The notes below the pieces were generated by a model, which made no database searches, was not told the origin of the DNA, and saw nothing but the letters and a program-made list of their open reading frames with translations. The position numbers and the translations under genes are program-made. This document shows, one piece after another, positions 35,125-48,011 of a DNA stretch of 64,000 bases. How positions within the stretch are numbered: the first letter of the stretch is position 1; the number at the start of each line of letters is the position of its first letter. Origin of the DNA: a virus (Duplodnaviria; Caudoviricetes); the IMG/VR virus record IMGVR_UViG_3300025367_000001, positions 3,152 to 67,151 of that record, one strand, 5' to 3'.

Positions 35125-35131
35125 GTAAACT

Positions 35132-35281: not shown

Positions 35282-36161
35282 CGTCTGTATCCCACTCGTC
35301 AACAACAGAAGCTAGGTCGCCAGTTTTCTTCTTTGGTACCGCTGACGGTTTAACTGTAGGCTTACGCTTCTCAGGCTCATCAAACGACTCCGCTTCTTCC
35401 TTAGGTGCAGCTAATGCTGGAGCTGCTTTCTTTGTACCTGCACTTTGGGAGACAGACATTGTAACCGCCTGCTTAGCTTCCTTAGACTCGCTCTTTTCCT
35501 TGACGCTTTCATACTCGTCCTCAGACAACCAACGCATAGGCTGGAAGAACAACTTAGGTACTGCGGCTTTAGTATCGAAACGCAACCGAGTAACAACAGT
35601 CTCGGGGCTAATGCTCTGCGCGGCTAAGAATCTTGCATACGCTTGTAGTGGGCGCTTGTCGCCTTCTTCTTTACCGAAGATTGATGTAGCAGATAGGGTT
35701 AACTGCATAACATCGCCAGTTACATCGTTAGACAATACAACCGCAAGACGCTGACTGAAACGACACGCACGGGAATCACCTTGACCGGAGCCTTTGGCAT
35801 TTTGTGGGCATGACGCGCAGTTACTAGCTTGCGCTTCTTTAGCGGATGCATCGGGTTTTTCACCGTCAGCGGACCAGCAATCGGGGGCTTTAGATGCGCC
35901 TTCTTCATAGCTACCAGCGTAGTACGTACGGCTGATCTTTGGGGCGGCTTGAACAATCACCACATCAAGATGGCGGTCTTCGATAGCTGCTACCTCATCA
36001 CTACCTGACATTAAACGAAATACACCACCTTTAACGGAGATGCGCTTACCAAAATTACCACTGCCACCGCCTGATAGGCTTCTCGCTAATTCAGAAATCT
36101 CTACCGTCTTAGCAAATGCTGGTAGTTGGGCGGGGTTAAATGCTGTGAGTTCTTTACTCAT
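35274..36161 (-). CDS. Putative ssDNA-binding protein
   Basis: RISVKGGVF, Cys cluster, acidic tail VDEWDTDDE; replication context. Confidence 0.5.
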   Translation of the reverse strand: MSKELTAFNPAQLPAFAKTVEISELARSLSGGGSGNFGKRISVKGGVFRLMSGSDEVAAIEDRHLDVVIVQAAPKISRTYYAGSYEEGASKAPDCWSADGEKPDASAKEAQASNCASCPQNAKGSGQGDSRACRFSQRLAVVLSNDVTGDVMQLTLSATSIFGKEEGDKRPLQAYARFLAAQSISPETVVTRLRFDTKAAVPKLFFQPMRWLSEDEYESVKEKSESKEAKQAVTMSVSQSAGTKKAAPALAAPKEEAESFDEPEKRKPTVKPSAVPKKKTGDLASVVDEWDTDDE

Positions 36162-36381
36162 TTGTTACTGCTCCTGTACTAGTTGGCTTGGCAACTGCCG
36201 CACCTGTTTGTAAAAATAATAAGAATGCTTCGGCTACTTCGGTAACTTCATAGGCACTGCCTTCATACATACACTTAGCGGCTGTGTCTAGAGCCATTCT
36301 GCGTAGGTCAAGTTCAAGCATGACGTTACGTGTTGCATTTTCTACTGCTTGTTGTTCTGGTGTTAATTGAGTGTTGCTCAT
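36154..36381 (-). CDS. Hypothetical protein
   Basis: AAGGAG SD; overlaps next start. Confidence 0.55.
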   Translation of the reverse strand: MSNTQLTPEQQAVENATRNVMLELDLRRMALDTAAKCMYEGSAYEVTEVAEAFLLFLQTGAAVAKPTSTGAVTNE

Positions 36382-36391
36382 GTACTTCTCC

Positions 36392-36796
36392 TTATTTGGT
36401 TGGTTTACGAACTGATACTGATACTTCGGACATGGAGTTTAAACCCATTGGTACAACTCCAGGGTTCTCATCCAAAAACATCGCCATATTTTTCTGAGCA
36501 ATTCTTTTCTCAAAAAGGTCAAGCGCATCGTGCTCTATCGCGAACGTCTTAAATGAATCCCAGTCGTCTGTGTAGTAGCGCGTCTTTTGCGACAAGATAA
36601 TAGTGCCTTCATCTGTTCGTACAGATTGAAGACCAAGCGCCACCATCTGATCCTTCATGGCGTTCTTAATTTCTTCCTGCTGCAGTTTAAGTTCCTCAAG
36701 CTTGGACTCATACTCCGTCGTAAGCTCATTAGTCCTGCTATATATCTTGCGATATATCTTTGCTAGTTTGTCTAGCGGAATCACTTCGTCTGACAT
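36392..36796 (-). CDS. Coiled-coil hypothetical replication-region protein
   Basis: AAGGAGG SD; DWDSF...LFEKRI motif. Confidence 0.6.
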   Translation of the reverse strand: MSDEVIPLDKLAKIYRKIYSRTNELTTEYESKLEELKLQQEEIKNAMKDQMVALGLQSVRTDEGTIILSQKTRYYTDDWDSFKTFAIEHDALDLFEKRIAQKNMAMFLDENPGVVPMGLNSMSEVSVSVRKPTK

Positions 36797-36859
36797 ACTT
36801 CCTCCTTTGTCAATAATTATACATCAATACAGACAGCTGTACAACCCGATAATGGGTTT

Positions 36860-38422
36860 TTAAATTTTGCCTATCTCCTCCTTATACAGATTGAGCAGAA
36901 TGTCATGTCCTTCAACACGCTTTTCTAACTGCGCAAACATCCGCTTTTCTATATCACTACCTTGTAAGTGTATCACAGTAACATTCGTACTTGTCTGTCC
37001 AATACGATCTGCTCGGGCAATACACTGTAGATAGGTTTCTACAGACATAACGGGGCCATAAAATACTACTGTATCCGCGGCTGTAAGCGTTACCCCATGA
37101 GAGGCTGACTGGGGTTGAACTACCAGTATACGCGGATTAGGTTCTGTTTGGAACCGTTTAAATATATCGGTACGCTTATTAACCGATACGTCACCATGAA
37201 TCACCTCTGCCGCCACGTTATGCTTAAGAAGGTACTCGTGGATGGTCTCAATGCTGTGCCTAAAGGGTGCAAATACAATCACCTTTCTGTTGGTTTCTTC
37301 CAACACTTCTAGCAAAACATTCAAGCGAGGAGCACAGTCAAATTCCACGACCTCATGGTTGTCGGTGTACGCCGCACCAGCAGAAATCTGTAGTAGCTTG
37401 GATACACCAGCCGCGGCGTTAACTGCCGTGATAGTCTCGCCCGAAGCCTGCATAACCATGCGCTCTTTGAGGAGTTTATAGTACTTGACTTGCTGTGGGG
37501 TTAGGGGTATCTCTCGTGTCTCAGTTAGTACTGGTGGTAGGTCTGTACACTCTTCTTTGGTAAACCTAATGGCAGGTTGCAATGCAGCAAATACCGCCTC
37601 AGCTGCCCCGCTCTTAGGAACCCATTTGAATTGGGTAAGCTTTTTCATAACCTTATCGCGCCATGCAGTAGCAAACTTCGGTACACCAGTCGGGTTAACT
37701 AACTTAGCTAAACCATACGCATCCACAGGCGATTGCGCAGAAGGAGTTCCTGTCATCATCCACAACATTGAATCAGGGTGCAGAATTTTATTAAGGGACT
37801 TCCATCGTTTAGTTGATGCGTTCTTGTATGCGTTGGCTTCATCTACTATGACTAAATCAAACCGCCCATCGCGTGCAACTTCCTCGGCAATTAAGTTAAG
37901 CCCGTCGTAGTTAACGATAACGAACTCGTAGTCGCCTTGAACCATCTCGATACGCCGACTAGCCTGAGCATGGTGCGCCGCAATTGCAGACCTATGTATT
38001 ATGCTGTTAGATATACCGCTTATCCAAGCATCGTGCATGATTGATAAAGGGCACAAGATTAAGCAACGTCTGACTTTCTTTAACCGCATCAAGTAATCCG
38101 CCGCCCATAAAGCACTAAGCGTCTTACCAGTTCCCGGGTCATTAAATACAAACGCTCTTGGGTTAAGTGTTAAGAAGGAGGATGTTTCAACCTGATGCGC
38201 AAAGGGTCTATGCCTGCCTGGCCAATCATACCTAGCCGTTATGGGCGAGACTAAATCTTTAACACCTAAGTTTCTTAATACCCTTACTTCCTCTAGACCC
38301 CAAAATACTGCCATCTCATATACACCACCATTCTCACCGACTATCTTACTGCGCGGAATAATACTGTACTTATCGGGGTCACGCGTCCTAAATACTAGAG
38401 CTTTGTTCTCTACTATTTCCAT
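36860..38422 (-). CDS. SNF2-family helicase
   Basis: DPGTGKT, VDEAN, TGTP, QCIARADRIGQ. Confidence 0.9.
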   Translation of the reverse strand: MEIVENKALVFRTRDPDKYSIIPRSKIVGENGGVYEMAVFWGLEEVRVLRNLGVKDLVSPITARYDWPGRHRPFAHQVETSSFLTLNPRAFVFNDPGTGKTLSALWAADYLMRLKKVRRCLILCPLSIMHDAWISGISNSIIHRSAIAAHHAQASRRIEMVQGDYEFVIVNYDGLNLIAEEVARDGRFDLVIVDEANAYKNASTKRWKSLNKILHPDSMLWMMTGTPSAQSPVDAYGLAKLVNPTGVPKFATAWRDKVMKKLTQFKWVPKSGAAEAVFAALQPAIRFTKEECTDLPPVLTETREIPLTPQQVKYYKLLKERMVMQASGETITAVNAAAGVSKLLQISAGAAYTDNHEVVEFDCAPRLNVLLEVLEETNRKVIVFAPFRHSIETIHEYLLKHNVAAEVIHGDVSVNKRTDIFKRFQTEPNPRILVVQPQSASHGVTLTAADTVVFYGPVMSVETYLQCIARADRIGQTSTNVTVIHLQGSDIEKRMFAQLEKRVEGHDILLNLYKEEIGKI

Positions 38423-38567
38423 CTTCGTTTCTCTCTTCTTTTTGTTTTATGTAATCGTTCAAAGTCTTTGGTTGTTTTTTTCCAAAGATTGCTTCAAAGT
38501 TTTTATCAAACTGTTCTAGTTCTACACCTAATGGGCGAGGTGTATCGCCTTTACCACCATCTCTCAT
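38388..38567 (-). CDS. 59-aa hypothetical protein
   Basis: Own translation MRDGGKGDTPRPLGV...FDKNFEAIFGKK; TAATG coupling. Confidence 0.55.
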   Translation of the reverse strand: MRDGGKGDTPRPLGVELEQFDKNFEAIFGKKQPKTLNDYIKQKEERNEDGNSREQSSSI

Positions 38568-38809
38568 TATTTTTCCTTTGCTAATATCTGAGCTGCTCTA
38601 TGAATTTTTCCATCAAACCAACGACGAACAACATAACTGCGAACAACAGAAATGACTGTGTAAAGTAATCCCATGTAAAAGTTGTTAGTAAGAGTAATAT
38701 GGAACCCAAAAAGAGGAAGGATAAAAAGGTTAGCAGTAAAATTAATGCCAAACCCAATAGCCACGTTAATGCACGCTTCATAAAAACTCCCTAGTTTAGT
38801 CTGTCTCAT
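38567..38809 (-). CDS. Small two-TM membrane protein
   Basis: QTKLGSFYEA..NVAIG...RSYVVRRWF. Confidence 0.6.
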   Translation of the reverse strand: MRQTKLGSFYEACINVAIGFGINFTANLFILPLFGFHITLTNNFYMGLLYTVISVVRSYVVRRWFDGKIHRAAQILAKEK

Positions 38810-38997
38810 TTCTCTTGTGCCTTTCCTTCACGTGCTACCTCTAAGTAATCTTCTATTGTGTAATCACTCATGCACTTCCAATAATATTCAAGACCTTCTC
38901 TTATTGAGCGATGCTCTCCTGTTACATATTGCATGTAGTAATCAACAATCTCTTTCATATCTTTTTCTTGTTGTTTCGTAAACTTTCTGTGCTTCAT
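38806..38997 (-). CDS. Mini-ORF ending KAQEK
   Basis: Bounded on both sides by the 20-bp junction repeat. Confidence 0.6.
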   Translation of the reverse strand: MKHRKFTKQQEKDMKEIVDYYMQYVTGEHRSIREGLEYYWKCMSDYTIEDYLEVAREGKAQEK

Positions 38998-39308
38998 TTA
39001 TCTTGTGCCTTTCTTAGTATTGCTCTAGCAAACTCATAAACTCCGCTTTCTTTGTAACCATAAATCTGATAACCAAGAATATCGTCAGCCAGTTTTGCTA
39101 TTTCATCATCTGTTAGTGTCTTTGCTGGATAACTAACATACTCACCAGCCATATGACTAGCGGTTCTGTCAAAGGATTCATCTGCTGGATGGGTGTAGAG
39201 TGGAATCCATGTGCCTTCAAGATGCTCAATCACTTGTAAGTTAATTAACTTTGGCTTTCGGTCTTCCAAGCCCAACAACATCCACGCTACTGGTTCATTT
39301 GCGTTCAT
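38994..39308 (-). CDS. Modular mini-protein (EPVAW / LYTHP / KTLTDDEI / RKAQDK boxes)
   Basis: Shares three nucleotide boxes with 45660..45878. Confidence 0.65.
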   Translation of the reverse strand: MNANEPVAWMLLGLEDRKPKLINLQVIEHLEGTWIPLYTHPADESFDRTASHMAGEYVSYPAKTLTDDEIAKLADDILGYQIYGYKESGVYEFARAILRKAQDK

Positions 39309-39703
39309 GGCATTAACTCTTTAGGTGGACGATCATCGCCTTCTCGGTAAGTCTTGCTATACAGCGTTAGCATCCGTAGATTACACATCGCATGAGCTAG
39401 ATGTGGTTGTCCTGATTCGGGGTCTAGTTCTTCACCTCGTTGCCAAGCAGCTAAGTGTCTCATTGCACAAGCATAGGGAACAGACCAAGGCATTCCTTTA
39501 GCCCAATTCCAAGCAGCATATTTCTCTTTACCATACATCCAAACTCTAGCCTCATCTTCCAATGTAGCTAGTGGGATCAAACTAAGATCGGCTTTACCGC
39601 CGTTGAACCTAGCGCCTGATCCTTTTGCTGTACTGTTTACATCTCCTATACCTTTAGTTACTGTATCGTCACTGTGGTATACGTATTCTTCGTTTGGCAT
39701 CAT
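39305..39703 (-). CDS. DUF5664-like dATP/dGTP diphosphohydrolase domain protein
   Basis: GK..LSLIP, YGKEKY..WNW.KG, RHL..W, DPESG.PHLAHA. Confidence 0.75.
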   Translation of the reverse strand: MMPNEEYVYHSDDTVTKGIGDVNSTAKGSGARFNGGKADLSLIPLATLEDEARVWMYGKEKYAAWNWAKGMPWSVPYACAMRHLAAWQRGEELDPESGQPHLAHAMCNLRMLTLYSKTYREGDDRPPKELMP

Positions 39704-39709
39704 TCCTCC

Positions 39710-39967
39710 TTATTTGATTGAGCCATCTGCCTTCCTTGGGAAACTTCTATTAGCACTAGCGCTCTTAGCGCTAAGATTACTTCGTACCGTCTTACCGCCT
39801 TTGCTTAGGGGCTCGGTGTGATCTACATCCTTGCCATCGCCTTTATGCACTACGCCTTCCCTCTCAAGCATACGTCTAGCTTTATTGCGTTGGGCGCGTT
39901 TCTTCTTAACGGCTTCTGTGCCGTCGTAGTTTAGGTACTCTTGTCGAAAATTACGCTTAGCTACCAT
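39710..39967 (-). CDS. Small HNH endonuclease
   Basis: GDGKDVDH..PLSKGG...NL......NR. Confidence 0.7.
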   Translation of the reverse strand: MVAKRNFRQEYLNYDGTEAVKKKRAQRNKARRMLEREGVVHKGDGKDVDHTEPLSKGGKTVRSNLSAKSASANRSFPRKADGSIK

Positions 39968-40466
39968 TTTTAAGTCCTTTCTTATTGTGCTCGGCTACTG
40001 CCTCACACCAATCAATAAATTCCTCTACAGAGGTATCGTTTCTAAAGCTGTTTACTGCCCTACAAACCATTTGAATATTATCGGGCGTATACCCTTCGCC
40101 TGCAACAATACGATCTATGGACGCATTTGTTTTTGTTATTACGCCTTTTTCTAAAGAGCAGGTCAAGTCTCGCCCCGTTAGAGCACACTTGTAGTTTTGC
40201 TTTTCAAGTCTGTCTAGAATAATCTGCTTAGTTAGTTTGTCTCTTTTTCTACCGCCATAATACAAAAGGCGTGCGGCATACCTTGACCAATCACCGCTTA
40301 TATATGCGTATTGATTCTCAGTAGACTGTATACCTGTAATGTATTTCCATTTGCCTTTACATTGTGGAGAACAAAATTTATGTACGCCCGAACGTGGAGT
40401 AAACAAAGTACCACAAACAGCGCATGCTTTTTGTTTAAATGTTTGTGGTGTGTCCCAGCGTGGCAT
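39957..40466 (-). CDS. Zn-finger + HNH-like (homing) endonuclease
   Basis: CAVC...FCSPQC; CALTG...SIDRI...GY...NIQMVC..VN. Confidence 0.7.
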   Translation of the reverse strand: MPRWDTPQTFKQKACAVCGTLFTPRSGVHKFCSPQCKGKWKYITGIQSTENQYAYISGDWSRYAARLLYYGGRKRDKLTKQIILDRLEKQNYKCALTGRDLTCSLEKGVITKTNASIDRIVAGEGYTPDNIQMVCRAVNSFRNDTSVEEFIDWCEAVAEHNKKGLKNGS

Positions 40467-40477
40467 TTTGTTCTCTC

Positions 40478-41146
40478 TTAATAACGTTTGCGGTGAAACT
40501 CACAGCTTTTTACAGGACACCACCCACATAGCGGGGTGCTATTTGGATTCCATATGTCATTGTCGTGGCTAGAGGCGAGCTTGGCAACCCGTTCTCTATA
40601 CTTATTCCAATGGTAAGGGGCGTCTTCTAACAGCATTTTATGCTTAACCGCGCTACCTTTAACTACAAATAGCAGGGCTGAGTTAACTTGCCGTATGTGG
40701 GGGAAGTGAGCGAACACCATCAAAGACATTAGGATTAGCTGATCTCGGTCAGGATACTTGTCATTGCCTGTCTTATAGTCAATAACCCAAGCTTTTAAGC
40801 CATCGTCATCAATAATAAGTAAATCAGCAATACCGCGTACCCAAACGTCGTCATCTTTAAAACCGCATGGGGAGAGGTCAACCCTCAACCCCATCTCATA
40901 CTCAGCTAACTTGCGTCCTTCTTTTTTAAGTAGGCTATCCAGTACTGGCTTCATGTAGTCATACTCAGGGGGCAGGGGTGTGCCATCCTTAACGTAAACT
41001 TCTGCCGCTTCATGCACTTGCTTACCGTAGATAGTGTGGACAGTATCAGTGAAGGGGTAGTTTTTAAGTACCTTGACTTCATGAAACCGCCTAGCACAAC
41101 CTTCGTAATCTTTAAGCCCTGAATGGCTCCACTTAATTGTAGTCAT
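40478..41146 (-). CDS. PD-(D/E)XK / Cas4-like exonuclease
   Basis: WSHS...C, G...H, RGIAD, DYKTG, QL, C-terminal CGWC...C. Confidence 0.8.
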   Translation of the reverse strand: MTTIKWSHSGLKDYEGCARRFHEVKVLKNYPFTDTVHTIYGKQVHEAAEVYVKDGTPLPPEYDYMKPVLDSLLKKEGRKLAEYEMGLRVDLSPCGFKDDDVWVRGIADLLIIDDDGLKAWVIDYKTGNDKYPDRDQLILMSLMVFAHFPHIRQVNSALLFVVKGSAVKHKMLLEDAPYHWNKYRERVAKLASSHDNDIWNPNSTPLCGWCPVKSCEFHRKRY

Positions 41147-41442
41147 TAGAATTTCGCTGTTCGTATGGCTTGTTCAAGGCGGTCGGCAAACCCACTAACA
41201 AATGTTTCCTTGGCGTTTAGCTTGGACTCACCCATATCATACAAAATAGCATGAACAATCTCATGCCACAAAGTATTATGTTGCCGCGATGCCGCCTGCT
41301 TAGCAATGGATATAGTGTGGTTACTGTAGTTATATGCACCTCGGCACTCATCCCTACCGACAAACACACTATCGTATAGCTCTACTTTGATTTTGGTTTT
41401 GCCTATTGTTATTACCTTTGGTACTGCAAATCGTTTGGTCAC
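41146..41442 (-). CDS. Small HExxH metallopeptidase-like protein
   Basis: TLWHEIVHA...E. Confidence 0.6.
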   Translation of the reverse strand: MTKRFAVPKVITIGKTKIKVELYDSVFVGRDECRGAYNYSNHTISIAKQAASRQHNTLWHEIVHAILYDMGESKLNAKETFVSGFADRLEQAIRTAKF

Positions 41443-43427
41443 TTCGCTTCTCCATATCGTTTGGCACAGCCGGTCTCAGCGTCAAGAGGGATTCCTGACA
41501 TGTACTTAGGATCTGCTACCATCTGCGCGTGTACCCAAGTTTCAGCTTCTACGGCTTCTGTCTCGGGAACTAGTACTACAACTTCATCATGCACAGTTAG
41601 TACACACGGATACCTCTTTTGTATCCGTAGCATCCCATCCGTCATGACACATCGTGCTACTGCTTGCACAATATTTTCTACTATTTTACCACCATACAGC
41701 TTCTTAGGCTTGTTCTTATCATCCCCACCATACTGCCATTGGATTCTGCCCTTGTTGTCAGCTACTCCTTCAAGGTTTGGGTATCTTAAAGACAGCCCAC
41801 TAGGTAGCTCAATGCTCTCCTTGGCAAACTTAATGCACTTGTAAGGATGTTCTTTACCCCTAGATAAGCAAGTCAAAATAGCATCGCTACATAGTTGCCA
41901 AAAAGCAACAACTGGTTGGGCTTTACTTCTATAGATGTCGATGATCTTCTTGGCAGATACGCAATGAATCAATAGCTCGTCCTCCGTACAAGTATGAGGT
42001 ATAGCCCGCATTTTTTCTAAGTTCTTATCCCACCCAATAAAGTCTTGCATGTCTTGGCCAGTAACACCGAGTTGTTTAGCAAACGCTTTATCGTACATCG
42101 TAGGGGGTGCACCTAGAAAGCCCGTCAATAATTGAGCCGCAAAGCTAGCCCAACCCATGCCATAGCCACATCCTAAGAGAGCTGACTTCGCCGACTGCCT
42201 GAGATCCGCATGGTCTTTTTTATTGAGACCGGCAATACCGAACATCTGTGCTCCGAACGCCGCATATGCGTCTTGCCCTGACGCAAAGATTTCAAGAAGA
42301 TTTTGATAGTCGGCGAGGTACGCAAGTACACGCGGTTCAATCTGCGATAGGTCGCAAACAACGAGAGTGTAACCTCTCGGCGCTTGAATACTTTTGCGTA
42401 AAAAAGACCCCCGCTTGAGGTTCTGCAGATTAAGCCCCGAACCCTTGCTCGCTGACCAACGACCGGTGTGGGCGCCGTAATAATTGAGCGGGACAGGTAG
42501 CGTACCTCGTTCTGATATATCCACGAACCTTTGCGCTCGCGTTCTTTCGAGTGTCGACTTAACTTTAAGCCTTGCCTCACATATAAGTGATACGTCTTCG
42601 TTGTTTGAATTAAGCAGTGCTTGGAAGAGGGCATCCGTTTTAGCGAAAGCGAAAGCTTCTTTACCAGTCGTCTTGCTAATTTTTGTTGGGGGGGATACCC
42701 CAAGTGCCCTAAGGACTTCAGCAAACTGATCGTTACTAGCCAACGCCGTTTCATCAACGTTAACTTTTTTAAGGATCGCTTCGCGCTTGGTACGCTCATC
42801 AATAATGGCTTCATTCAACATCTCCTTATCAAGTTCAAGGACGGGGTCAATAAACATTTTTAGTGTGAGGTCGATAAGCTTTAGCTCACCTTTTGGATAG
42901 CCGCCCGTGATTTCCTCGTTTAAGTTATTAAATATTGCTTCGCACAAGAACACATCATGAAGACAATAAGTCGCTAACTCTTCCTCTATGTTTAGTGGTA
43001 GTTCTTCCAAGCCGTCGGTAGAGTAGACTGCTTGCCCTTTTGGTGGGAGCTCGTAGTATTCTGCGAGTTTGGCGAGGCTGTTTCCGACCTCAACGCCCCT
43101 AAGAGCACGAGCCATAGATAGAGAATCAAAAATAAAAGTAGGATGCGCGCCGTAAACCCATGACAAAATTGCCACATCAAACTGGGCATTGTGCGCAAGC
43201 ACCGCCGTCCGACTCCAATCAACTGACTCGACCCATTGAGGGATATTCTCATGCGTAACCCAATGCGACTTGTCATCGCCATACTCTTTCCAACCAATTC
43301 CAAATGCTTTAAATTTATCATCACGAATATACTCCTCCGTTGTCATCTTAGATAGGGTGTAGTCTGACCTATCCCATCTTGTCTCAAAGTCCACGACCAG
43401 TAGTCGGTCAAATGGTTTGTTTGCCAT
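41439..43427 (-). CDS. polA: Family A DNA polymerase with 3'-5' exonuclease
   Basis: DFET, HNAQFD, YCLHD; motif A DLSQIEPR, motif B RQSAKSALLGCGYG, motif C TVHDE. Confidence 0.92.
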   Translation of the reverse strand: MANKPFDRLLVVDFETRWDRSDYTLSKMTTEEYIRDDKFKAFGIGWKEYGDDKSHWVTHENIPQWVESVDWSRTAVLAHNAQFDVAILSWVYGAHPTFIFDSLSMARALRGVEVGNSLAKLAEYYELPPKGQAVYSTDGLEELPLNIEEELATYCLHDVFLCEAIFNNLNEEITGGYPKGELKLIDLTLKMFIDPVLELDKEMLNEAIIDERTKREAILKKVNVDETALASNDQFAEVLRALGVSPPTKISKTTGKEAFAFAKTDALFQALLNSNNEDVSLICEARLKVKSTLERTRAQRFVDISERGTLPVPLNYYGAHTGRWSASKGSGLNLQNLKRGSFLRKSIQAPRGYTLVVCDLSQIEPRVLAYLADYQNLLEIFASGQDAYAAFGAQMFGIAGLNKKDHADLRQSAKSALLGCGYGMGWASFAAQLLTGFLGAPPTMYDKAFAKQLGVTGQDMQDFIGWDKNLEKMRAIPHTCTEDELLIHCVSAKKIIDIYRSKAQPVVAFWQLCSDAILTCLSRGKEHPYKCIKFAKESIELPSGLSLRYPNLEGVADNKGRIQWQYGGDDKNKPKKLYGGKIVENIVQAVARCVMTDGMLRIQKRYPCVLTVHDEVVVLVPETEAVEAETWVHAQMVADPKYMSGIPLDAETGCAKRYGEAK

Positions 43428-43435
43428 TGGGTTCC

Positions 43436-43639
43436 TTAGTTAAATATAAATACACCAAATAGGGTGGCTACAAGCACACCCACATATACTACTGAAACCG
43501 TTTTGCGTCTTTTAAGTTCTTTAATGTTTCCTATAAGGGCTGTTTGTAGAATCTCCATATCCCCATCAATCGGTGGTCTTCGATCAGGGCGGTAGTTAAT
43601 ACCCATTTTTATCTTGCCGTTATCGTAAGGAACATTCAT
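43436..43639 (-). CDS. Small protein with C-terminal TM
   Basis: Hydrophobic C-terminus; ATGA coupling. Confidence 0.5.
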   Translation of the reverse strand: MNVPYDNGKIKMGINYRPDRRPPIDGDMEILQTALIGNIKELKRRKTVSVVYVGVLVATLFGVFIFN

Positions 43640-43809
43640 ACACGCCCTCCAGTAACCAGACTTGGGGCACTTCTAAACGTTTTTAAATCGCGTTCCCGTG
43701 GGTGGATTGTTGGTTTGTAGATGACCGTAGTATTTACAGTTCTTGGTTGTGCCCATTTGATTGGGTCAGATTTATCTTCTTCGATTACTCTTTTTGGTTT
43801 ACTACTCAT
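43636..43809 (-). CDS. 57-aa hypothetical protein
   Basis: Own translation MSSKPKRVIEEDKSDPIKWAQPR...; AAGGA SD. Confidence 0.45.
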   Translation of the reverse strand: MSSKPKRVIEEDKSDPIKWAQPRTVNTTVIYKPTIHPRERDLKTFRSAPSLVTGGRV

Positions 43810-43818
43810 TTGTTTTCC

Positions 43819-44046
43819 TTAGTTTAATGTTCGGTTGTCCATGTGTTGCTTTACATAGAACCCAGTTGTTTCAGCCGCATCGTGCAGTAGCTCAGGAACT
43901 TCCCATTCTTCGATGTTAATTCCATAAATCTTAACTACCTGAGAATCGTAGTCGTAGCCTACAACAATGGCGCAGGAATTCTTTTCCTCGTCTACGCAGT
44001 CATTCAGTATATCTTGTACTGCTTTGTAGGTTTCATTAGATTCCAT
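43819..44046 (-). CDS. Hypothetical protein
   Basis: AAAGGA SD; tight packing. Confidence 0.55.
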   Translation of the reverse strand: MESNETYKAVQDILNDCVDEEKNSCAIVVGYDYDSQVVKIYGINIEEWEVPELLHDAAETTGFYVKQHMDNRTLN

Positions 44047-44344
44047 GTCGATCCTTTAGTTCTTGCAAAGTGTCAGTAACATCATAAATGTTGTCTTCGT
44101 TTACGACCATTGTTACTCCGCCAGCCTTTCGTATTAACGCCATTTGCGCTTCTTGGAGAGGAGTAGGTTTGTTATTGCCCGCCTTACACTCGATGCCAAT
44201 AAACAAACCAAGGTAACAAGCCACAATATCAGGTACACCACTACGCCCAAAACCCCCAGTAACAGGGTAGAAATAATATGCCCCATAAGAGTTAAGTACA
44301 TTGACCACTTTCTTCTTTACCTTGGCTTCGGGTGTCATGCTCAT
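44036..44344 (-). CDS. VRR-NUC nuclease
   Basis: PEAKVK, GVPD, IECK, PTPLQ. Confidence 0.85.
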   Translation of the reverse strand: MSMTPEAKVKKKVVNVLNSYGAYYFYPVTGGFGRSGVPDIVACYLGLFIGIECKAGNNKPTPLQEAQMALIRKAGGVTMVVNEDNIYDVTDTLQELKDRHGI

Positions 44345-44538
44345 TGTAGTTCCGCATTGCGTCTCCTAACTTCGTCGATCCGTTGTAAACAAGTTACTAT
44401 CTGAAAGCGTTGTTTATCTAGCATCTGAAAATCGCCGACAGCTTCCGCCTTAAGTGCAAGAATAACCTCAGCCTCTAAATTACATAACGCCGCATTTTCC
44501 CTGACTATCTTTAGTACTTCCAACTCACTTAACTGCAT
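44341..44538 (-). CDS. Hypothetical protein
   Basis: Coupled ORF, AAGGAG SD. Confidence 0.5.
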   Translation of the reverse strand: MQLSELEVLKIVRENAALCNLEAEVILALKAEAVGDFQMLDKQRFQIVTCLQRIDEVRRRNAELQ

Positions 44539-44818
44539 TGCGTAGCTCCTTCATAAATTCCCTTCCTTTATCAGTTAGCGCATGATACACGCTTCTTTTG
44601 TCGTCAGATTCGTTGTACTTGTGCATAAGCTTTTTAGCTATGGCGGAATTGACGTGGTATTGGGCAGTGGTAGATACCATCGCCCCTTGCTTATTAACTA
44701 AAGCTAGAAGCCGAGTAGTTGTTATAGGCTCAGTCTTTTCCACCAAACCAATAACATACTCCTCGCCCCAAGACACGCCAACCTTATCTCTAATGTGCTG
44801 GGTGGCAAATATAGTCAT
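44525..44818 (-). CDS. MarR-like winged-HTH protein
   Basis: DKRSVYHALTDKG wing motif. Confidence 0.65.
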   Translation of the reverse strand: MTIFATQHIRDKVGVSWGEEYVIGLVEKTEPITTTRLLALVNKQGAMVSTTAQYHVNSAIAKKLMHKYNESDDKRSVYHALTDKGREFMKELRNAVK

Positions 44819-45396
44819 TACTTAATCTGCTTTCCAAACACTTGGTTAAGCTCAGCCCATAGCTCGCGTGCTTGGTAGATGTTAAGGCTATTTACTAAGT
44901 CCTTCACACTAGTATGAACAGGCAAAACCGCAGGCTTGGTAAACTTCTCAACATTCTCAGCGTCCATCGTTGCTTGCTTCATACGCTTAGTCGCTTCCCC
45001 TACGCTAACATACTTCTTGCTTACTACCTTAACTAACTTTTTCTTCTTACTATACAGCCCCTTGACCTGCGTTGTGTATGTAGAAGCTACCGCCCAGTAT
45101 ACGAATACCATGCGTCTGCCGACCCCTTTGTAGTTCTTGTTTAGAATTGGGGCACGACCAATTAGCTGGCGGTCGTATAGGGTTTTAAGTGATGAGGCTA
45201 GCCCTGCAACATCGTCTTTATTGATATTAAATGCGATGCGTAAAGAATCTAGACTGCATTGGGGGTTGGTTTTGATGTGCTCGTATACAGATTCACAAAA
45301 AGATTTTTTCTCTGTTACTGGCGTAGATGTAACTTCTTCTACTGGTAGGTTCCAACTGTTGATGATTTTTTGTACTTCAGTTTGAATATCTGGCAT
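44818..45396 (-). CDS. Hypothetical, possible winged-HTH protein
   Basis: LASSLKTLYDRQLI; C-terminal LNIYQARELW. Confidence 0.5.
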   Translation of the reverse strand: MPDIQTEVQKIINSWNLPVEEVTSTPVTEKKSFCESVYEHIKTNPQCSLDSLRIAFNINKDDVAGLASSLKTLYDRQLIGRAPILNKNYKGVGRRMVFVYWAVASTYTTQVKGLYSKKKKLVKVVSKKYVSVGEATKRMKQATMDAENVEKFTKPAVLPVHTSVKDLVNSLNIYQARELWAELNQVFGKQIK

Positions 45397-45459
45397 AACT
45401 TTTCCTTTGTTTGTAATACTTCGGTAATTTTACTACAAATTTTAACTGTTGTTTTTTAA

Positions 45460-45663
45460 CTACTTTTTCTCAATTAACTTAAACAGTTTCTCAACCATCT
45501 CTTCAGCGTCTAGTGCTATATTGATAAGGGCTAACAACTTCTCGTTAAATGCAGGTTCTAGGTTAGCGGCGTTATCCACTGCTCCTATGTTTGTGAGTTC
45601 CGCTATTTCATTGTGTAGCGTTCTTATGTCCGAGCCTAGCTCGTTGATTCTTTGTTTATTCAT
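45460..45663 (-). CDS. Mini-ORF (MNKQRINELG...)
   Basis: Start codon supplied by the junction repeat at 45660. Confidence 0.55.
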   Translation of the reverse strand: MNKQRINELGSDIRTLHNEIAELTNIGAVDNAANLEPAFNEKLLALINIALDAEEMVEKLFKLIEKK

Positions 45664-45878
45664 TTCTCTTGTGCCTTTCTTATAATTTCTCTGCAAAATT
45701 TGTAATCAAGCTCTGTTAAACAGTCATATCCCTTAAAGTCATAGACTTCACACCATAAACCCTTTATTTCATCATCTGTTAGTGTCTTTAACTGTGGTGA
45801 GCAAGTATGAATAGAATCCCCTGTAACCCTTTTGCCACAATCTAAACACGCAGTCCACGCTACTGGTTCATTGTTCAT
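45660..45878 (-). CDS. Modular mini-protein (EPVAW / CxxC filler / KTLTDDEI / RKAQEK)
   Basis: Bounded by two junction repeats. Confidence 0.65.
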   Translation of the reverse strand: MNNEPVAWTACLDCGKRVTGDSIHTCSPQLKTLTDDEIKGLWCEVYDFKGYDCLTELDYKFCREIIRKAQEK

Positions 45879-46054
45879 TTCTCTTGTGCCTTTCTATGTG
45901 TTTCTTTAACAGCGTCCATAAATCCTTCAGCAACCTCTGGATACATCTCACGCAAACGGACAATAATTTCTTTTAACGTATCTTCAAAATTTTCATTTTC
46001 AAATGCTGGACGCAATACGTTATCTACTAACTCTTTTCTTGTTACTTTTGTCAT
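45875..46054 (-). CDS. Mini-ORF (MTKVTRKEL...RKAQEK)
   Basis: Bounded by two junction repeats. Confidence 0.6.
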   Translation of the reverse strand: MTKVTRKELVDNVLRPAFENENFEDTLKEIIVRLREMYPEVAEGFMDAVKETHRKAQEK

Positions 46055-46125
46055 TTCTCTTGTGCCTTTCTCCATGCTTTTTTTAGCCAAGCCATCCATT
46101 GTTTTCTTGTCATTGGTTTGTTCAT
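46051..46125 (-). CDS. 24-aa mini-ORF MNKPMTRKQWMAWLKKAWRKAQEK
   Basis: ATGA coupling at both ends; ends in the junction repeat. Confidence 0.5.
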   Translation of the reverse strand: MNKPMTRKQWMAWLKKAWRKAQEK

Positions 46126-46364
46126 AGCTTTCTCCACTTCTGAATGTCATCCCAAACCTCTGGGCGGTTTTCTTTTAGCCAATACACTACGCTTTTCAAC
46201 ACTTCTATTTCAGCTTGTTGCTGGCGTAGCATTTCTTCATACTTACTTGTTATCCTTTCAATTTCTACCTCTTGTTGGCGTAGCATGGTGGCTATCTCTT
46301 CTCGAGTCACCAGCTTGTACCAACTGTCAACTTCCAATAAATCAGCTAGTTCATTTGCGTTCAT
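46122..46364 (-). CDS. Modular mini-protein (MNANE box, two MLRQQ boxes)
   Basis: First 16 nt identical to the start of 38994..39308. Confidence 0.6.
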   Translation of the reverse strand: MNANELADLLEVDSWYKLVTREEIATMLRQQEVEIERITSKYEEMLRQQQAEIEVLKSVVYWLKENRPEVWDDIQKWRKL

Positions 46365-46576
46365 CCCACATACTCCTCTGCCATGTTTTCAGCATATGTT
46401 AACCAAGGCTTCCATGCCCTACGTATTTCACCAAACACATAGTGGTTGGGGTTTTCACGTAACACTAAGTCTCGTTTAGCTTCCACCGTCTCTGCTAATG
46501 GGATTGTTGTAAACAAAGAGTTCTTGTTTGCGTCGTGGATTATATATTTTCTAGTGCGAGGTGCTTCATTTTCCAC
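46361..46576 (-). CDS. Hypothetical protein
   Basis: Coupled ORF. Confidence 0.45.
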   Translation of the reverse strand: MENEAPRTRKYIIHDANKNSLFTTIPLAETVEAKRDLVLRENPNHYVFGEIRRAWKPWLTYAENMAEEYVG

Positions 46577-46769
46577 AGTTGTTTTCCTTTTGGTTTTGCT
46601 TTGTTTGAATCTGCTTGATGACCGTTGATAAAGCCTGCAGTTGGGTGCATATAGTGTTAATGATCTGCGTCACTTCATACGCTTGGGGGCTTGTATCCAC
46701 AAAACTATACTGCGCACCCGATGCCCCTTGTATAACCGCCTCCCTATCCTCCGTTGTAAATGTTGTCAT
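46566..46769 (-). CDS. Hypothetical protein (MTTFTTEDR start)
   Basis: AAGGAGG SD; ATGA coupling. Confidence 0.5.
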   Translation of the reverse strand: MTTFTTEDREAVIQGASGAQYSFVDTSPQAYEVTQIINTICTQLQALSTVIKQIQTKQNQKENNCGK

Positions 46770-47080: not shown

Positions 47081-47244
47081 AGTTTTAGCATTCCTTCCTC
47101 TACTTGCGTGTTAATAATTAAATCGTTAGCGTCCCATATAGCCGTTTCTAAATGTTTAGTCCGATACTCTTGCGGGCAATCCTCTCTAACTTGGGTTAGT
47201 AACTCAATCAAACAATTAAACAACTTTTTTTCTAACACATTCAT
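47077..47244 (-). CDS. 55-aa hypothetical protein
   Basis: Own translation MNVLEKKLFNCLIELLTQVREDCPQEYRTKHL...; AAGGAGG SD. Confidence 0.5.
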   Translation of the reverse strand: MNVLEKKLFNCLIELLTQVREDCPQEYRTKHLETAIWDANDLIINTQVEEGMLKL

Positions 47245-48011
47245 ACAACCTCCTTAATTGCATTAACATATTTGTTAACAGTCGAACCCTCTAGACCGCA
47301 CGCTGTATTTACTTCTAACACATAGCACTTATCCTGTGCCTCATTCCATACAACATCTACTGCACCGAAGTCTAGACCTAATGCACTAACGGCAGATGTA
47401 GCCACGCCCCTAAGATCATGAGGTTCTTCGATATCACCCCGACAAAAGACATACCCGTTTGCATGGTTTCTAATATAAGGGTGGTGGTCAGCAACACTAG
47501 AACTCCTACGCTTTTCTTGTATGTCAATAATTTTACTATTAAATACATGGACTCTAAACTCCTTTTGTTTGCGTATGTATTTGGTATACAACGGGGCATC
47601 TACTAACTCATCTTGTTGTTTAGCTACAACAATGCCTTGCCCTGAGTGTGCGGTGAGTAGCATACGACATACTACCTTGTGCCCTTGGTCTATCCACTCC
47701 TTTGCTTTGTCCTTATCTGTTGTGTACTCAGGGTGTGGGACATCCGCCAACTTAAAATGCAGTAACGACCTATGTTTGTTTGACGCTACGCTGACGGCAC
47801 TAGCGGAGTTGATGACCGTAGCATTTGTATCACTAACCCCACTACTACCCCAATTCACCACAACCCTACTAGACTTACACAAGCCCACCCGCTCAGGGGT
47901 AATAAACAACACATCTCTACCTAGTGCCTCGCTCAATCCTTTCTTTAATAGCCTAGCACTTTTACTGCCTCGTTTGTATGGGGCTATTGCCACTCGCGAT
48001 GTGTTTGTCAT
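47241..48011 (-). CDS. ATP-grasp (RimK-like) ligase
   Basis: HSGQGI, EFRVHV, LGLDFGAVD, LEVNTA.G. Confidence 0.85.
   Translation of the reverse strand: MTNTSRVAIAPYKRGSKSARLLKKGLSEALGRDVLFITPERVGLCKSSRVVVNWGSSGVSDTNATVINSASAVSVASNKHRSLLHFKLADVPHPEYTTDKDKAKEWIDQGHKVVCRMLLTAHSGQGIVVAKQQDELVDAPLYTKYIRKQKEFRVHVFNSKIIDIQEKRRSSSVADHHPYIRNHANGYVFCRGDIEEPHDLRGVATSAVSALGLDFGAVDVVWNEAQDKCYVLEVNTACGLEGSTVNKYVNAIKEVV

What the first reader, a model, noticed from the sequence alone, without database searches (positions are those of the whole stretch)
38806..46125. Mini-gene cassettes joined by one 20-bp junction that is C-terminus, stop, RBS and next start at once
Seen: GAAAGGCACAAGAGAAATGA (- strand) occurs at 38806, 38994 (1 mismatch), 45660, 45875 and 46051, in two tandem clusters about 6.6 kb apart. 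Each copy encodes KAQ(E/D)K-stop of one small ORF and, via ATGA, the start of the next; the purine run (AAAGG/GAG) could act as RBS. Most ORFs between junctions are unrelated to each other, yet synonymous positions in the junction are not diverged. Inference: junction-to-junction units (about 175-215 bp) are plug-in cassettes that can be gained, lost or swapped by short-homology recombination and always land translationally coupled, like an integron array with no integrase in view.
Basis: partly seen in the sequence, partly recalled or inferred. Interest (0 to 1): 0.82.

Follow-up and report, generated by a model that had tools for sequence, protein, structure and literature searches.

The report
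Portable gene junction shuffling phage cassettes
A 20-base stop/ribosome-site/start junction, identical in very different freshwater phages, joins small genes in variable arrays and marks the points where these genes and gene pieces have been swapped, gained or lost.

Summary
The 20-mer stands five times on the minus strand, and 0 of 100 shuffles reached five.

It is a sharply bounded DNA element, (TAA)GAAAGGCACAAGAGAAATGA. Those phages' PolA proteins share a median of 39% residues with the window's.

- **DNA-level conservation.** 72 of 80 listed contigs from a scan allowing 64 synonymous versions carry the one exact version.
- **Not only a peptide tag.** In 15 of 231 junctions the upstream gene ends in another frame, mostly at TAA just before the element.
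- **Variable arrays.** Near-identical relatives keep the flanks but differ in the arrays, with homology breaking at the element.
- **Precise indels.** Junction-to-junction gain or loss occurs.
- **Broken linkage.** Linkage across the junction is 13-18%, against 71-96% at control positions.

In 91 of 283 contexts the 20-mer ends a 39-nt module, FARAILRKAQEK-stop, of a large mosaic small-protein family. That family's internal modules are just as conserved and are also mosaic boundaries.

No integrase, hairpin or promoter was found. The closest known kind is the PeSL of T4-type phages, here at the level of translation. Recombination and translational coupling are inferred, not shown.

The parts
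38806..38825 (-). Junction copy 1 (exact 20-mer). It ends the 63-aa ORF (..EGKAQEK-TGA) and holds the ATG of the DUF7220 gene.
   Evidence: Homology with the near-identical relative L052 ends exactly at 38825.
38994..39032 (-). Junction copy 2 (20-mer 38994-39013, one mismatch) inside the 39-nt family module that encodes FARAILRKAQDK-stop.
   Evidence: (D1).
45660..45679 (-). Junction copy 3. It ends the 72-aa family ORF and starts the 67-aa ORF.
   Evidence: The long homology with L170/L171, L168 and L169 begins 0, 3 and 19 nt from its 5' base.
45875..45894 (-). Junction copy 4. It ends the 59-aa ORF and starts the 72-aa family ORF.
46051..46070 (-). Junction copy 5. It ends the 24-aa mini-ORF and starts the 59-aa ORF.
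   Evidence: It is bridged without differences by contigs of two other runs (X2 record 24 and X8 record 32).
38994..39308 (-). 104-aa member of the mosaic small-protein family (MNANEPVAW .. PLYTHPA .. KTLTDDEI .. FARAILRKAQDK).
   Evidence: No Pfam or PHROG family. AF2 model with mean pLDDT 67.9: N-terminal strands and two C-terminal helices.
38806..38997 (-). 63-aa cassette ORF with no family.
38567..38809 (-). 80-aa DUF7220 membrane protein, the conserved flank downstream of array 1.
   Evidence: PF23858, E 6e-27; kept in L052.
39305..39703 (-). 132-aa dATP/dGTP diphosphohydrolase-like gene, the conserved flank upstream of array 1.
46122..46364 (-). 80-aa coiled-coil ORF (MNANELAD .. MLRQQ .. 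AEIE modules). It is the first variable ORF of array 2.
   Evidence: D7, D15. Its first 172 nt recur at 89% identity in the 198-aa ORF of L170.
46051..46125 (-). 24-aa mini-ORF (MNKPMTRKQWMAWLKKAWRKAQEK), ATGA-coupled at both ends.
   Evidence: Comparable mini-ORFs of 19-33 codons between junctions occur in L009, L010, L046, L066, L076 and L092.
45875..46054 (-). 59-aa cassette ORF with no family.
45660..45878 (-). 72-aa family member (MNNEPVAW .. KTLTDDEI .. CREIIRKAQEK).
   Evidence: Its middle segment recurs fused to the N-part of the 104-aa ORF in protein P0011.
45460..45663 (-). 67-aa ORF, the conserved flank downstream of array 2.
46361..46576 (-). 71-aa ORF, the conserved flank upstream of array 2.
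   Evidence: L170 1092..1307.
39099..39123 (-). KTLTDDEI module, 25 nt identical to 45765-45789.
   Evidence: (D16).
45765..45789 (-). KTLTDDEI module, second copy.
   Evidence: (D16).
39282..39299 (-). NEPVAW module (coordinates worked out from the ORF start). The second copy is at 45855-45872.

Best explanation
**What the element is.** The 20-mer is the core of a standard, portable inter-cistronic junction, (TAA)GAAAGGCACAAGAGAAATGA. It is read at the nucleotide level and has four features:
- a TGA that closes one reading frame;
- usually a TAA just before it that closes a second frame;
- a purine-rich, unstructured stretch with Shine-Dalgarno-like AAAGG and GAG;
- the ATG of the next gene, overlapping the stop as ATGA.

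A ribosome that finishes almost any upstream ORF can therefore restart on the next one. This step is inferred.

**How it shuffles genes.** The same letters stand at many gene borders, in one phage and in very different freshwater phages. They therefore offer short identical DNA at which recombination during co-infection, or between neighbouring copies, can swap, insert or delete whole small genes. The internal modules of the NEPVAW/KTLTDEEI/FARAILRKAQEK family allow the same for pieces of genes. Every product is again an in-phase, expressed array.

**Shown and inferred.** Shown by comparison are the mosaic breakpoints, the indels and the broken linkage. Inferred are homologous crossover as the cause, and homogenisation or selection for exchangeability as the reason the DNA stays identical.

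**In this phage.** Two such arrays (38.8-39.3 kb and 45.66-46.36 kb) flank the replication gene block.
For: **1. The element is real and wide-spread.**
- Five copies in the window; 0 of 100 shuffles reached five.
Across the 162 loci hold 2-8 co-oriented copies; 0 of the 162 have copies on both strands. Median spacing is 206 nt, and 152 of 159 spacings are at most 1000 nt.

**2. Conservation is at the DNA level.**
- The scan for peptide AILRKAQEK plus TRR, with all synonymous codons allowed, gave 140 hits in 120 contigs. Of these, 117 are one identical 30-mer, with ATA 140/140, AGA 140/140 and TGA 140/140.
- In the scan allowing 64 synonymous versions of the 20-mer, 72 of 80 listed contigs are exact-version contigs.
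- In 23 alignable gene pairs of 65-92% identity, third codon positions are identical at 574/614 inside modules against 711/999 outside.

**3. The carrier phages are very diverged.** Only 56 of 162 loci share any of 51 window proteins. PolA is shared by 18 loci at a median of 39% amino-acid identity, and SNF2 by 27 loci at 51%.

**4. It is not just a peptide.**
- In 15 of 231 junctions an upstream ORF of at least 40 codons ends in another frame: TAA (13) or TGA (1) directly before the element, and one TAA overlapping its first bases. The sequence before the stop is unrelated.
- In 155 unique non-FARAIL contexts, conservation begins at the TAA and stops right after ATGA.

**5. It is a mosaic boundary.**
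- 17 of 160 internal ends of long inter-locus matches fall in the element, against a random mean of 1.2 and maximum of 4.
- Linkage across the junction is 15/116 and 15/83 pairs, against 71-96% at positions displaced by 600-3000 nt.
- Of 367 isolated shared segments between otherwise unrelated loci, 260 end in a module (random mean 11.8) and 91 do so at both ends (random mean 0.95).

**6. Close relatives differ in the arrays.** L052, L168-L171, L164/L165.

**7. Precise indels leave one copy of the 20-mer.**
- L165 has a 179-nt unit with a 60-aa ORF that L003 lacks; the flanks match at 92/100 and 89/100.
- Further cases of 324 nt and 864 nt, and the L048/L150 pair.

**8. The signals fit coupling.**
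- Every junction ATG opens an ORF of at least 24 codons, median 66.
- All five window contexts are unstructured: MFE 0 to -2.6 kcal/mol, with the 20-mer unpaired.
- There is no excess of promoters or terminators in the region.

**9. Arrays are reproduced in separate assemblies.** L170 and L171 differ at 5 of 8576 bases. X2 and X8 contigs bridge 46051-46070 without differences.
Against: - Nothing here shows translation, coupling or a recombination event directly. All data are metagenome assemblies and Logan contigs.
- Assemblers can mis-join at shared repeats, which would inflate the mosaic signal. Only some arrays are confirmed by a second assembly.
- 198 of 231 junctions keep the KAQEK frame open, so a role for the peptide, the end of a predicted C-terminal helix, is not excluded.
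- The AAAGG lies 10 nt before the ATG. The phage's other genes have AAGGAG-like sites placed closer to the start codon (read by eye).
- Twenty identical bases are few for ordinary homologous recombination. No single-strand annealing protein, integrase or reverse transcriptase was recognised in 50 window ORFs scanned with Pfam and 20 with PHROGs. YqaJ-like exonucleases do follow the junction in 6 of 150 cargo ORFs of other carriers.
- 19 of 26 small-indel rows are not flanked by the junction.
- The internal modules are frozen at synonymous sites too. A ribosome-site function cannot explain that.
Confidence: 0.65

Rival explanations
1. Shared translational operator. The exact 20-mer is kept because a phage or host factor recognises this one initiation region. 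The factor could be a translational repressor, an endoribonuclease or a small RNA. It would control the whole class of small genes together, and the mosaic breakpoints would be a by-product of the shared sequence.
For: The element is used in two frames and as untranslated spacer. It is sharply bounded around SD and ATG. It is single-stranded in all five folds, and the spacer letters are conserved beyond what an SD needs. That T4 RegA and RegB act on the initiation regions of early mRNAs is recalled, not looked up here.
Against: Internal coding modules far from any start codon (NEPVAW, KTLTDEEI) are frozen to the same degree. No complement of 11 nt or more to the element lies elsewhere in the window. 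No candidate factor was identified. The carriers share few proteins, so a common phage-encoded factor is not evident.
Confidence: 0.15
2. Protein tail of a young gene family. RKAQEK is simply the conserved C-terminus of a recently spread family, and the DNA identity reflects recent common descent rather than any function of the DNA.
For: 67 of 235 upstream ORFs end in FARAILRKAQEK. 74 of the 120 best homologs end in RKAQEK. 198 of 231 junctions are read in that frame. The tail closes a predicted helix.
Against: In the same gene pairs, third positions outside the modules are only 71% identical against 93.5% inside. That is not what recent descent of the whole gene would give. In 15 junctions the upstream ORF ends in another frame before the element. 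155 of 283 unique contexts lack the family module, and unrelated ORFs carry the tail.
Confidence: 0.1
3. Dedicated site-specific cassette system. An unrecognised recombinase or nuclease recognises the 20-mer and inserts or excises cassettes, as IntI does at attC.
For: Co-oriented arrays of promoterless small ORFs. Precise indels that leave one copy of the site. Endonuclease VII/HNH-like and VRR-NUC genes lie between the two arrays.
Against: No integrase or recombinase family was found among the 50 window ORFs scanned with Pfam. There is no inverted repeat or fold in the element. Breakpoints also lie at other modules and at other short repeats. The carriers share few proteins.
Confidence: 0.04
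4. Assembly artefact. The apparent shuffling comes from chimeric joins of co-occurring phage genomes at a shared repeat.
For: Logan contigs break at the modules, and depth rises 5- to 80-fold there. All loci are metagenome assemblies.
Against: The repeat itself and its exactness cannot be an artefact. The modules are 20-39 nt, which I take to be shorter than typical reads and the final k-mers of modern assemblers; that is my own knowledge, not tested here. L170 and L171, which carry different metagenome numbers, hold the same 6-junction array with 5 differences in 8576 nt. Contigs of two other runs bridge junction 46051-46070 without differences. The L052-type allele shows up as loose ends in run X13.
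Confidence: 0.04

Closest known systems
PeSLs (promoter-early stem-loops) of T4-type phages: Arbiol et al. 2010, PMC2839356 (abstract and sections 13 and 16 read); Comeau et al. 2014, PMC4122927 (abstract read)
   Same: Both are short conserved expression signals that flank small ORFan genes in hyperplastic regions. In both, insertions, deletions and replacements between close relatives are bounded by the motif. The proposed cause in both is homologous exchange between motif copies, so that cassettes arrive with their own expression signals.
   Different: PeSLs are intergenic motifs of about 100 bp holding a sigma-70 promoter, a terminator stem-loop, an SD and a start, so each is a transcription unit. 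They were described within T4-type phages. Here the element is 20-23 nt (39 nt in its family form) and mostly lies inside the upstream gene's last codons. It has no promoter hexamers and no hairpin, and it works, if at all, by stop-restart translation inside one operon. It is letter-identical in phages whose PolA proteins share about 39% residues. Mini-circles, shown for PeSLs, could not be looked for here.
Conserved 'linker' or boundary sequences of lambdoid phages (the modular theory of Susskind and Botstein, and later lambdoid genome comparisons; recalled, not read here)
   Same: Short conserved DNA at gene borders is proposed as the crossover point for exchanging functional modules.
   Different: As I recall, those sequences are few, weakly conserved and lie between functional modules of temperate phages. 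Here one exact word recurs up to 8 times per locus and also carries the translation signals.
Integron gene-cassette arrays
   Same: Co-oriented arrays of small, promoterless, unrelated ORFs whose number and order differ between relatives.
   Different: Integrons need an IntI integrase and folded attC sites of imperfect inverted repeats. Neither was found here. The junction here overlaps coding sequence and provides stop and start.
Synthetic bicistronic-design translational couplers (leader cistron with an embedded SD and overlapping stop/start; recalled, not read here)
   Same: A standard short upstream cistron end with an SD and overlapping stop/start makes initiation on any downstream gene less dependent on context. 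The 24-aa mini-ORF plus junction at 46051-46125 has this layout.
   Different: This one is natural and multi-copy, and it also serves as a recombination boundary. Its function has not been measured.
Mini-cassette gene conversion in antigenic variation (for example the pilS/pilE conserved and variable segments of Neisseria; recalled)
   Same: Short DNA-identical segments alternate with hypervariable ones inside a gene family and serve as anchors for segment exchange.
   Different: That system works inside one bacterial genome from silent copies into one expression locus. Here expressed genes in many different phage genomes are involved.

Membership tests
PeSL (T4-type mobile regulatory cassette) | Sigma-70-like promoter (-35/-10) inside the motif | tested here: not met
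   29 promoter-like sites in 36-55 kb against 34.2 +/- 5.7 in shuffles, and none on the minus strand at the five junctions. The 20-mer holds no such hexamers.
PeSL (T4-type mobile regulatory cassette) | Stable stem-loop that acts as terminator or attenuator | tested here: not met
   MFE 0 to -2.6 kcal/mol for 60-nt contexts, z-scores +0.06 to +1.6, with the 20-mer unpaired; no terminator-like site at the junctions.
PeSL (T4-type mobile regulatory cassette) | Sits beside small genes of unknown function in regions that vary between close relatives | tested here: met
PeSL (T4-type mobile regulatory cassette) | Indels and replacements between close relatives are bounded by the motif | tested here: met
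PeSL (T4-type mobile regulatory cassette) | Mini-circles from exchange between neighbouring motifs | not testable with these tools
   Only assembled contigs of the runs were available. The joints listed there have sides under 30 nt and come from other family members.
Integron cassette array | IntI-type tyrosine recombinase next to the array | tested here: not met
   No recombinase family among 50 window ORFs scanned with Pfam. The other ORFs of the crude list of 89 were not scanned.
Integron cassette array | attC site: imperfect inverted repeats that fold as a single strand | tested here: not met
   The element is 17 purines of 20 and cannot pair with itself.
Integron cassette array | Co-oriented promoterless cassettes | tested here: met
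   (0 of 162 loci with copies on both strands).
Translationally coupled gene junction (termination-reinitiation) | Stop and start codons overlap or abut | tested here: met
   ATGA in 5 of 5 window copies. TGA in 140 of 140 hits although TAA, TAG and TGG were allowed. TAATG variants occur in L170 and L065.
Translationally coupled gene junction (termination-reinitiation) | SD-like site at working distance before the restart codon | tested here: inconclusive
   AAAGG lies 10 nt and GAG 3 nt before the ATG. The phage's other genes show AAGGAG-like sites placed closer to the start codon (read by eye). The host and its 16S rRNA are unknown.
Translationally coupled gene junction (termination-reinitiation) | Downstream translation depends on upstream translation | not testable with these tools
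   This needs reporter assays or ribosome profiling.
Any curated protein family for the NEPVAW/KTLTDEEI/FARAILRKAQEK proteins | Match to a Pfam or PHROG model | tested here: not met
   no family for the 104-aa ORF and only sub-threshold noise for the 72-aa ORF; 1502 relatives, none listed with a Pfam domain, and where named only 'hypothetical protein'; the nearest named clusters score 0.76 and 0.75, which are leads only.

The most novel reading that the evidence does not exclude
The 20-mer and its sister modules form a community-wide 'standard interface'. Through it, very different freshwater phages share one pool of small accessory genes and of gene segments, and they build new small proteins combinatorially from module-bounded pieces, a kind of exon shuffling without introns. 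The letter-perfect identity is then kept by selection for staying exchangeable and always expressed, or by a still unknown dedicated mechanism, and not by descent or by the protein.
Probability: 0.3. Interest if true: 0.9.

Novelty: new variant of a known kind. Interest (0 to 1): 0.78.

Why it matters
Phage genomes are mosaics, and the idea that short conserved 'linkers' guide module exchange is old. Well-documented examples are few; PeSLs are the main one I could find and read. This case works at the level of translation and is only 20-23 bases long. Comparative data can score it: letter-identical junctions in phages whose polymerases share about 39% of residues, broken linkage, breakpoints, and precise cassette indels.

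If the mechanism holds, it explains how arrays of tiny genes of unknown function turn over quickly while every new arrival is still expressed. It gives a simple search key for hyperplastic regions and their cargo in freshwater viromes. It also offers a natural, context-independent translational coupler for synthetic operons.

The sub-genic mosaicism of the associated protein family, with at least 1502 clusters, is a rare clear case of proteins built from exchangeable segments in viruses.

Tried and rejected
- **Phage isolates.** Megablast of 38300-46700 against INPHARED gave only one 45-nt match, so no isolate relative was found.
- **RNA families.** Rfam at E up to 1 gave only two sub-threshold chance matches away from the junctions.
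- **Host.** The scan of genome contigs found 12 MAG contigs binned to discordant taxa (Bacteroidetes, cyanobacterium, Micrarchaeota, Nitrosotalea, four betaproteobacterial) and no isolate genome. I draw no host from this.
- **Read laying.** The four runs were available only as Logan contigs. The many 'joints' between the two arrays have sides of 18-40 nt and reflect other family members in the community. I do not count them as deletions or circles.
- **Structure.** The model of the 104-aa ORF has mean pLDDT 67.9 and pTM 0.37, too weak for a fold search, which I did not run.
- **Protein atlas.** The nearest named clusters are PF26207 (0.76) and DUF551 (0.75), which are leads only.
- **Antisense partner.** No complement of 11 nt or more to the element lies in the window.
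- **Literature.** Searches for the motif strings RKAQEK, FARAIL, NEPVAW and GAAAGGCACAAGAG found nothing relevant. A phrase search on translational coupling, hyperplastic regions and small phage genes also found nothing relevant. The statement that the element is undescribed rests on these two searches and only.

Full report
**1. The observation**

The word GAAAGGCACAAGAGAAATGA stands on the minus strand at 38806, 45660, 45875 and 46051. With one change (G to T) it also stands at 38994. Chance gives 0.01 matches, and 0 of 100 shuffles had five.

The window is bases 3152-67151 of a complete 67,151-bp virus record with terminal repeats. That record has no further copy: 0 forward and 5 reverse at up to 2 mismatches.

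Each copy supplies the last codons, KAQ(E/D)K-TGA, of one ORF and the ATG of the next as ATGA. In the direction of transcription the two arrays read as follows.

| Array | Upstream flank | Variable ORFs and junctions | Downstream flank |
|---|---|---|---|
| 1 | dATP/dGTP diphosphohydrolase-like gene (132 aa) | 104 aa - J - 63 aa - J | DUF7220 (80 aa) |
| 2 | 71-aa ORF | 80 aa - 24-aa mini-ORF - J - 59 aa - J - 72 aa - J | 67-aa ORF |

- Nearly all these ORFs overlap their neighbours by ATGA.
- Only the 104-aa and 72-aa ORFs are paralogs (E 1.6e-8). The other pairs share little beyond the tail.
- At 46051 the ATG frame is also open back to 46150, so a 91-aa reading is possible. I cannot decide between the two readings.

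**2. The element is far wider than this phage**

- In those 120 loci I counted 180 exact copies, 29 with one mismatch and 25 with two.
- In the 162 loci the copies per locus (at most 2 mismatches) were: 1 in 82 loci, 2 in 41, 3 in 18, 4 in 9, 5 in 7, 6 in 4 and 8 in 1.
- No locus has copies on both strands. Neighbouring copies are a median of 206 nt apart, and 152 of 159 spacings are at most 1000 nt.
- All 24 sequencing runs listed as holding the window stretch are freshwater or freshwater-sediment metagenomes.
- Bacterial and archaeal genomes gave only 12 MAG contigs of discordant taxa. The host is unknown.
- The carriers are not close kin. Only 56 of 162 loci encode a relative of any of 51 window proteins. 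PolA is shared by 18 loci at a median of 39% amino-acid identity, and SNF2 by 27 loci at 51%.
- At the DNA level most loci match the window only at the short modules.

**3. The conservation is in the DNA**

- *First degenerate scan.* It asked for the peptide AILRKAQEK followed by TRR with every synonymous codon allowed. It returned 140 hits in 120 contigs. Of these, 117 are one identical 30-mer. Ile is ATA in 140 of 140, Arg is AGA in 140 of 140, Leu is CTA in 137 of 140, and the stop is TGA in 140 of 140.
- *Second degenerate scan.* It allowed 64 synonymous versions of the 20-mer itself. 72 of the 80 listed contigs are contigs that hold the one exact version. Over the loci held, 230 of 263 occurrences are exact. 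That second figure is biased, because many of the loci were fetched with the exact word.
- *Control within genes.* In 23 inter-contig gene pairs that align over their length at 65-92% identity, third codon positions agree at 574 of 614 sites inside the modules and at 711 of 999 outside. The pairs are not independent of each other.

**4. It is not only a peptide tail**

- Of 231 junctions with enough flank, 198 have an open frame of at least 40 codons in the KAQEK frame.
- In 15 junctions an upstream ORF of at least 40 codons lies in another frame. It ends at TAA (13) or TGA (1) directly before the element, and once at a TAA that overlaps its first bases. The sequence before the stop is unrelated.
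- The remaining 18 junctions have only short or edge-truncated upstream ORFs.
- Among 283 unique 120-nt contexts, 91 carry the full 39-nt module TTTGCT...AAATGA that encodes FARAILRKAQEK-stop.
- 155 contexts do not carry it. In those, conservation starts at the TAA (60-70%), is 80-90% or more through the 20 letters, and falls to background right after ATGA. The requirement of at most 2 mismatches forces the middle of that profile, but not its sharp edges.
- The unit is therefore (TAA)GAAAGGCACAAGAGAAATGA: stops in two frames and a start in the third.
- Every junction ATG opens an ORF of at least 24 codons, median 66.
- The five window contexts do not fold (MFE 0 to -2.6 kcal/mol), and the 20-mer is unpaired in each.
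- There is no excess of promoter-like or terminator-like sites in 36-55 kb and no Rfam family.

**5. The gene family behind it**

Most upstream ORFs belong to one mosaic family of small proteins. It is built of short constant modules with unalignable, length-variable stretches between them:
- MNNEPVAW
- PLYTHPAKTLTDEEI
- FARAILRKAQEK
- in some members also MNANELAD..MLRQQQAEIEALK or DESFDRTASHMAGEYVS

Further facts about the family:
- A database search with the 104-aa ORF found 1502 clusters at E up to 0.001 among 5954 candidates. Almost all come from JGI or ENA metagenome sources, and the few that are named are called 'hypothetical protein'. The listed hits carry no Pfam domain. 74 of the 120 best end in RKAQEK.
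- The mosaicism can be seen directly. P0011 joins the N-part of the window's 104-aa ORF to the middle of its 72-aa ORF. P0027 carries the C-part of the 104-aa ORF on another N-part.
- The internal modules are as frozen at synonymous sites as the junction. NEPVAW has 81 hits, almost all AAT GAA CCA GTA GCG TGG. KTLTDEEI has 89 hits. FARAIL is TTT GCT AGA GCA ATA in 127 of 127.
- The AF2 model is of modest quality (mean pLDDT 67.9). It places KTLTDDEI at the start of one helix and FARAILRKAQDK in the last helix.
- No function can be named.

**6. The junction is a mosaic boundary**

(a) *Ends of long matches.* Of 160 internal ends of long matches between loci (at least 300 nt and at least 88% identity), 17 lie within the element plus or minus 3 nt. 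Random placement gives a mean of 1.2 and a maximum of 4 in 200 trials. Some of the pairs are duplicates of one another.

(b) *Linkage.* Among inter-contig pairs of junctions with similar upstream flanks, 15 of 116 also have similar downstream flanks. The other way round it is 15 of 83. At control points displaced by 600-3000 nt the figures are 71-96%. Linkage is also low across KTLTDEEI (17 of 53 and 17 of 132) and NEPVAW (15 of 32 and 15 of 80). Those two have no matched control of their own.

(c) *Isolated shared segments.* There are 367 segments of 100-800 nt, with median identity 93.6%, shared between 351 pairs of otherwise unrelated loci. Of these, 260 end in a module (random mean 11.8, maximum 23). 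91 do so at both ends (random mean 0.95, maximum 5).

(d) *Close relatives.*
- L052 matches the window at 96.4% over 31596-38825 and at 99.0% over 39304-42548. The first match ends at the last base of junction copy 1. In between, L052 has a 35-aa ORF and a 181-aa composite family ORF instead of the 104-aa and 63-aa ORFs.
- A search with the 192-aa neighbour gene found L168, L169, L170 and L171. Their long homology with the window (90-98% identity) starts 3, 19, 0 and 0 nt from the 5' base of junction copy 3.
- Upstream, L170/L171 have 9 ORFs and 6 junction copies where the window has 4 ORFs and 3 copies.
- At the first hot spot, upstream of the SNF2 gene, the window, L052, L165 and L164 hold 2, 1, 4 and at least 6 junctions.
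- The more distant L139 has none there, but it has one directly before its PolA gene.

(e) *Precise indels.*
- L165 carries a 179-nt unit (one junction plus a 60-aa ORF that itself ends in RLRKAQEK) between two junctions. L003 has the same flanks (92/100 and 89/100 identical) and one junction.
- Similar cases: 324 nt (L071 against L136 and L078), 864 nt (L165 against L164), and the L048/L150 pair.
- In all, 7 of 26 indel rows are junction-flanked and 19 are not.
- A 391-nt indel between the window and L170 lies between two MNANEL start modules.

**7. What the cassettes carry**

Of 150 non-family ORFs that start at a junction ATG, most match no Pfam family. The matches include YqaJ-like recombinase exonuclease (6), sigma-70 region 4 (3), DUF6552 (3), PolA (2), amino acid:DNA transferase (2) and radical SAM/SPASM (2).

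**8. Caveats**

- Everything rests on metagenome assemblies.
- Contigs of the runs break at the modules, and depth rises 5- to 80-fold there. This shows how repeated the modules are in the community and warns of possible mis-joins.
- Against a pure artefact: L170 and L171, which bear different metagenome numbers, agree at all but 5 of 8576 bases. Contigs of runs X2 and X8 bridge junction 46051-46070 without a difference. The L052-type allele appears as loose ends at 38825 and 39304 in run X13.
- No recombination protein of the annealing type, integrase or reverse transcriptase was recognised in the window. Not all ORFs were scanned.
- Translation, coupling and crossover were not observed.

**9. 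Reading**

The best explanation is a portable stop-SD-start junction that keeps any neighbour pair of small genes translationally linked. Because it is letter-identical at many borders and in many phages, it also serves as the place where cassettes are exchanged. The family's internal modules do the same for gene segments.

- The frozen synonymous sites in internal modules argue that homogenisation by exchange, or selection to remain exchangeable, matters at least as much as the ribosome-site function.
- A shared operator for a regulator remains a serious rival.

**10. Comparison with what is known**

- The closest known kind is the PeSL of T4-type phages (PMC2839356, abstract and sections 13 and 16 read; PMC4122927, abstract read). 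The role in hyperplastic regions is the same, but the anatomy and level differ: no promoter, no stem-loop, 20-23 nt, overlapping coding sequence, and translational rather than transcriptional.
- It is not an integron.
- I found no description of the motif in the searchable literature. Supplements were not seen.
- I rate it a new variant of a known kind.

Noticed in passing
window 49979-54365: At least eight copies of a 16-nt perfect hairpin word, GGACAG-NNNN-CTGTCC (GGACAGGTTTCTGTCC or GGACAGAAACCTGTCC, in both orientations). Most lie between the minus-strand genes at 50-54 kb, and most have no T-run after the stem. They may be regulatory hairpins, terminators or promoters of an unusual type.
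   Followed up: no
window 39305-39703; 47241-48011; 50002-51477; 7427-9199: Genes that hint at modified DNA or modified surface chemistry: a dATP/dGTP diphosphohydrolase N-domain (PF18909), a RimK-like ATP-grasp, an amidoligase-like protein and a sulfotransferase. Amino acid:DNA transferase (PF18724) occurs among junction-driven cargo genes of other carriers.
   Followed up: no
window 6151-7365 and 9199-10413: Two 404-aa RCC1-repeat paralogs (PF00415, E about 1e-81) flank the sulfotransferase gene in the structural half of the phage. Tail-spike-like proteins with endosialidase chaperone domains lie nearby at 12359-13969 and 20263-21951.
   Followed up: no
window 23359-31599: A 2746-aa ORF whose only Pfam match is LPD38 (large polyvalent protein domain) near its C-terminus. 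Together with the SU10-adaptor matches at 675-1613 and 2644-3519, it suggests a podovirus with a giant internal or ejected protein.
   Followed up: partly
window 46566-46769; L015 419-1057; L170 845-1102: The N-terminus MTTFTTEDR is shared by the window's 67-aa ORF, an 85-aa ORF of L170 and full-length YqaJ-like exonucleases that follow a junction in other contigs. This looks like another short start module shared by otherwise different genes.
   Followed up: no
L019 2509-2708: The 60-aa cassette ORF that is present in L165 and absent from L003 occurs in L019 with an internal stop (41 aa, a stop, then ..SEEYIESEWAKLRKAQEK). It is a decaying or split cassette still framed by two junctions.
   Followed up: no
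window 46192-46232 and 46246-46286: An internal 41-nt direct repeat (73% identical) inside the 80-aa ORF encodes two MLRQQ..AEIE heptad stretches. The same module is a breakpoint against L170 and L168.
   Followed up: partly
L139 5187-7179: In a distant relative (about 71% nucleotide identity) the essential PolA gene itself starts at an exact junction copy. The window's PolA (41439-43427) has an ordinary TAAGGA site instead. The element is therefore not confined to accessory genes.
   Followed up: partly
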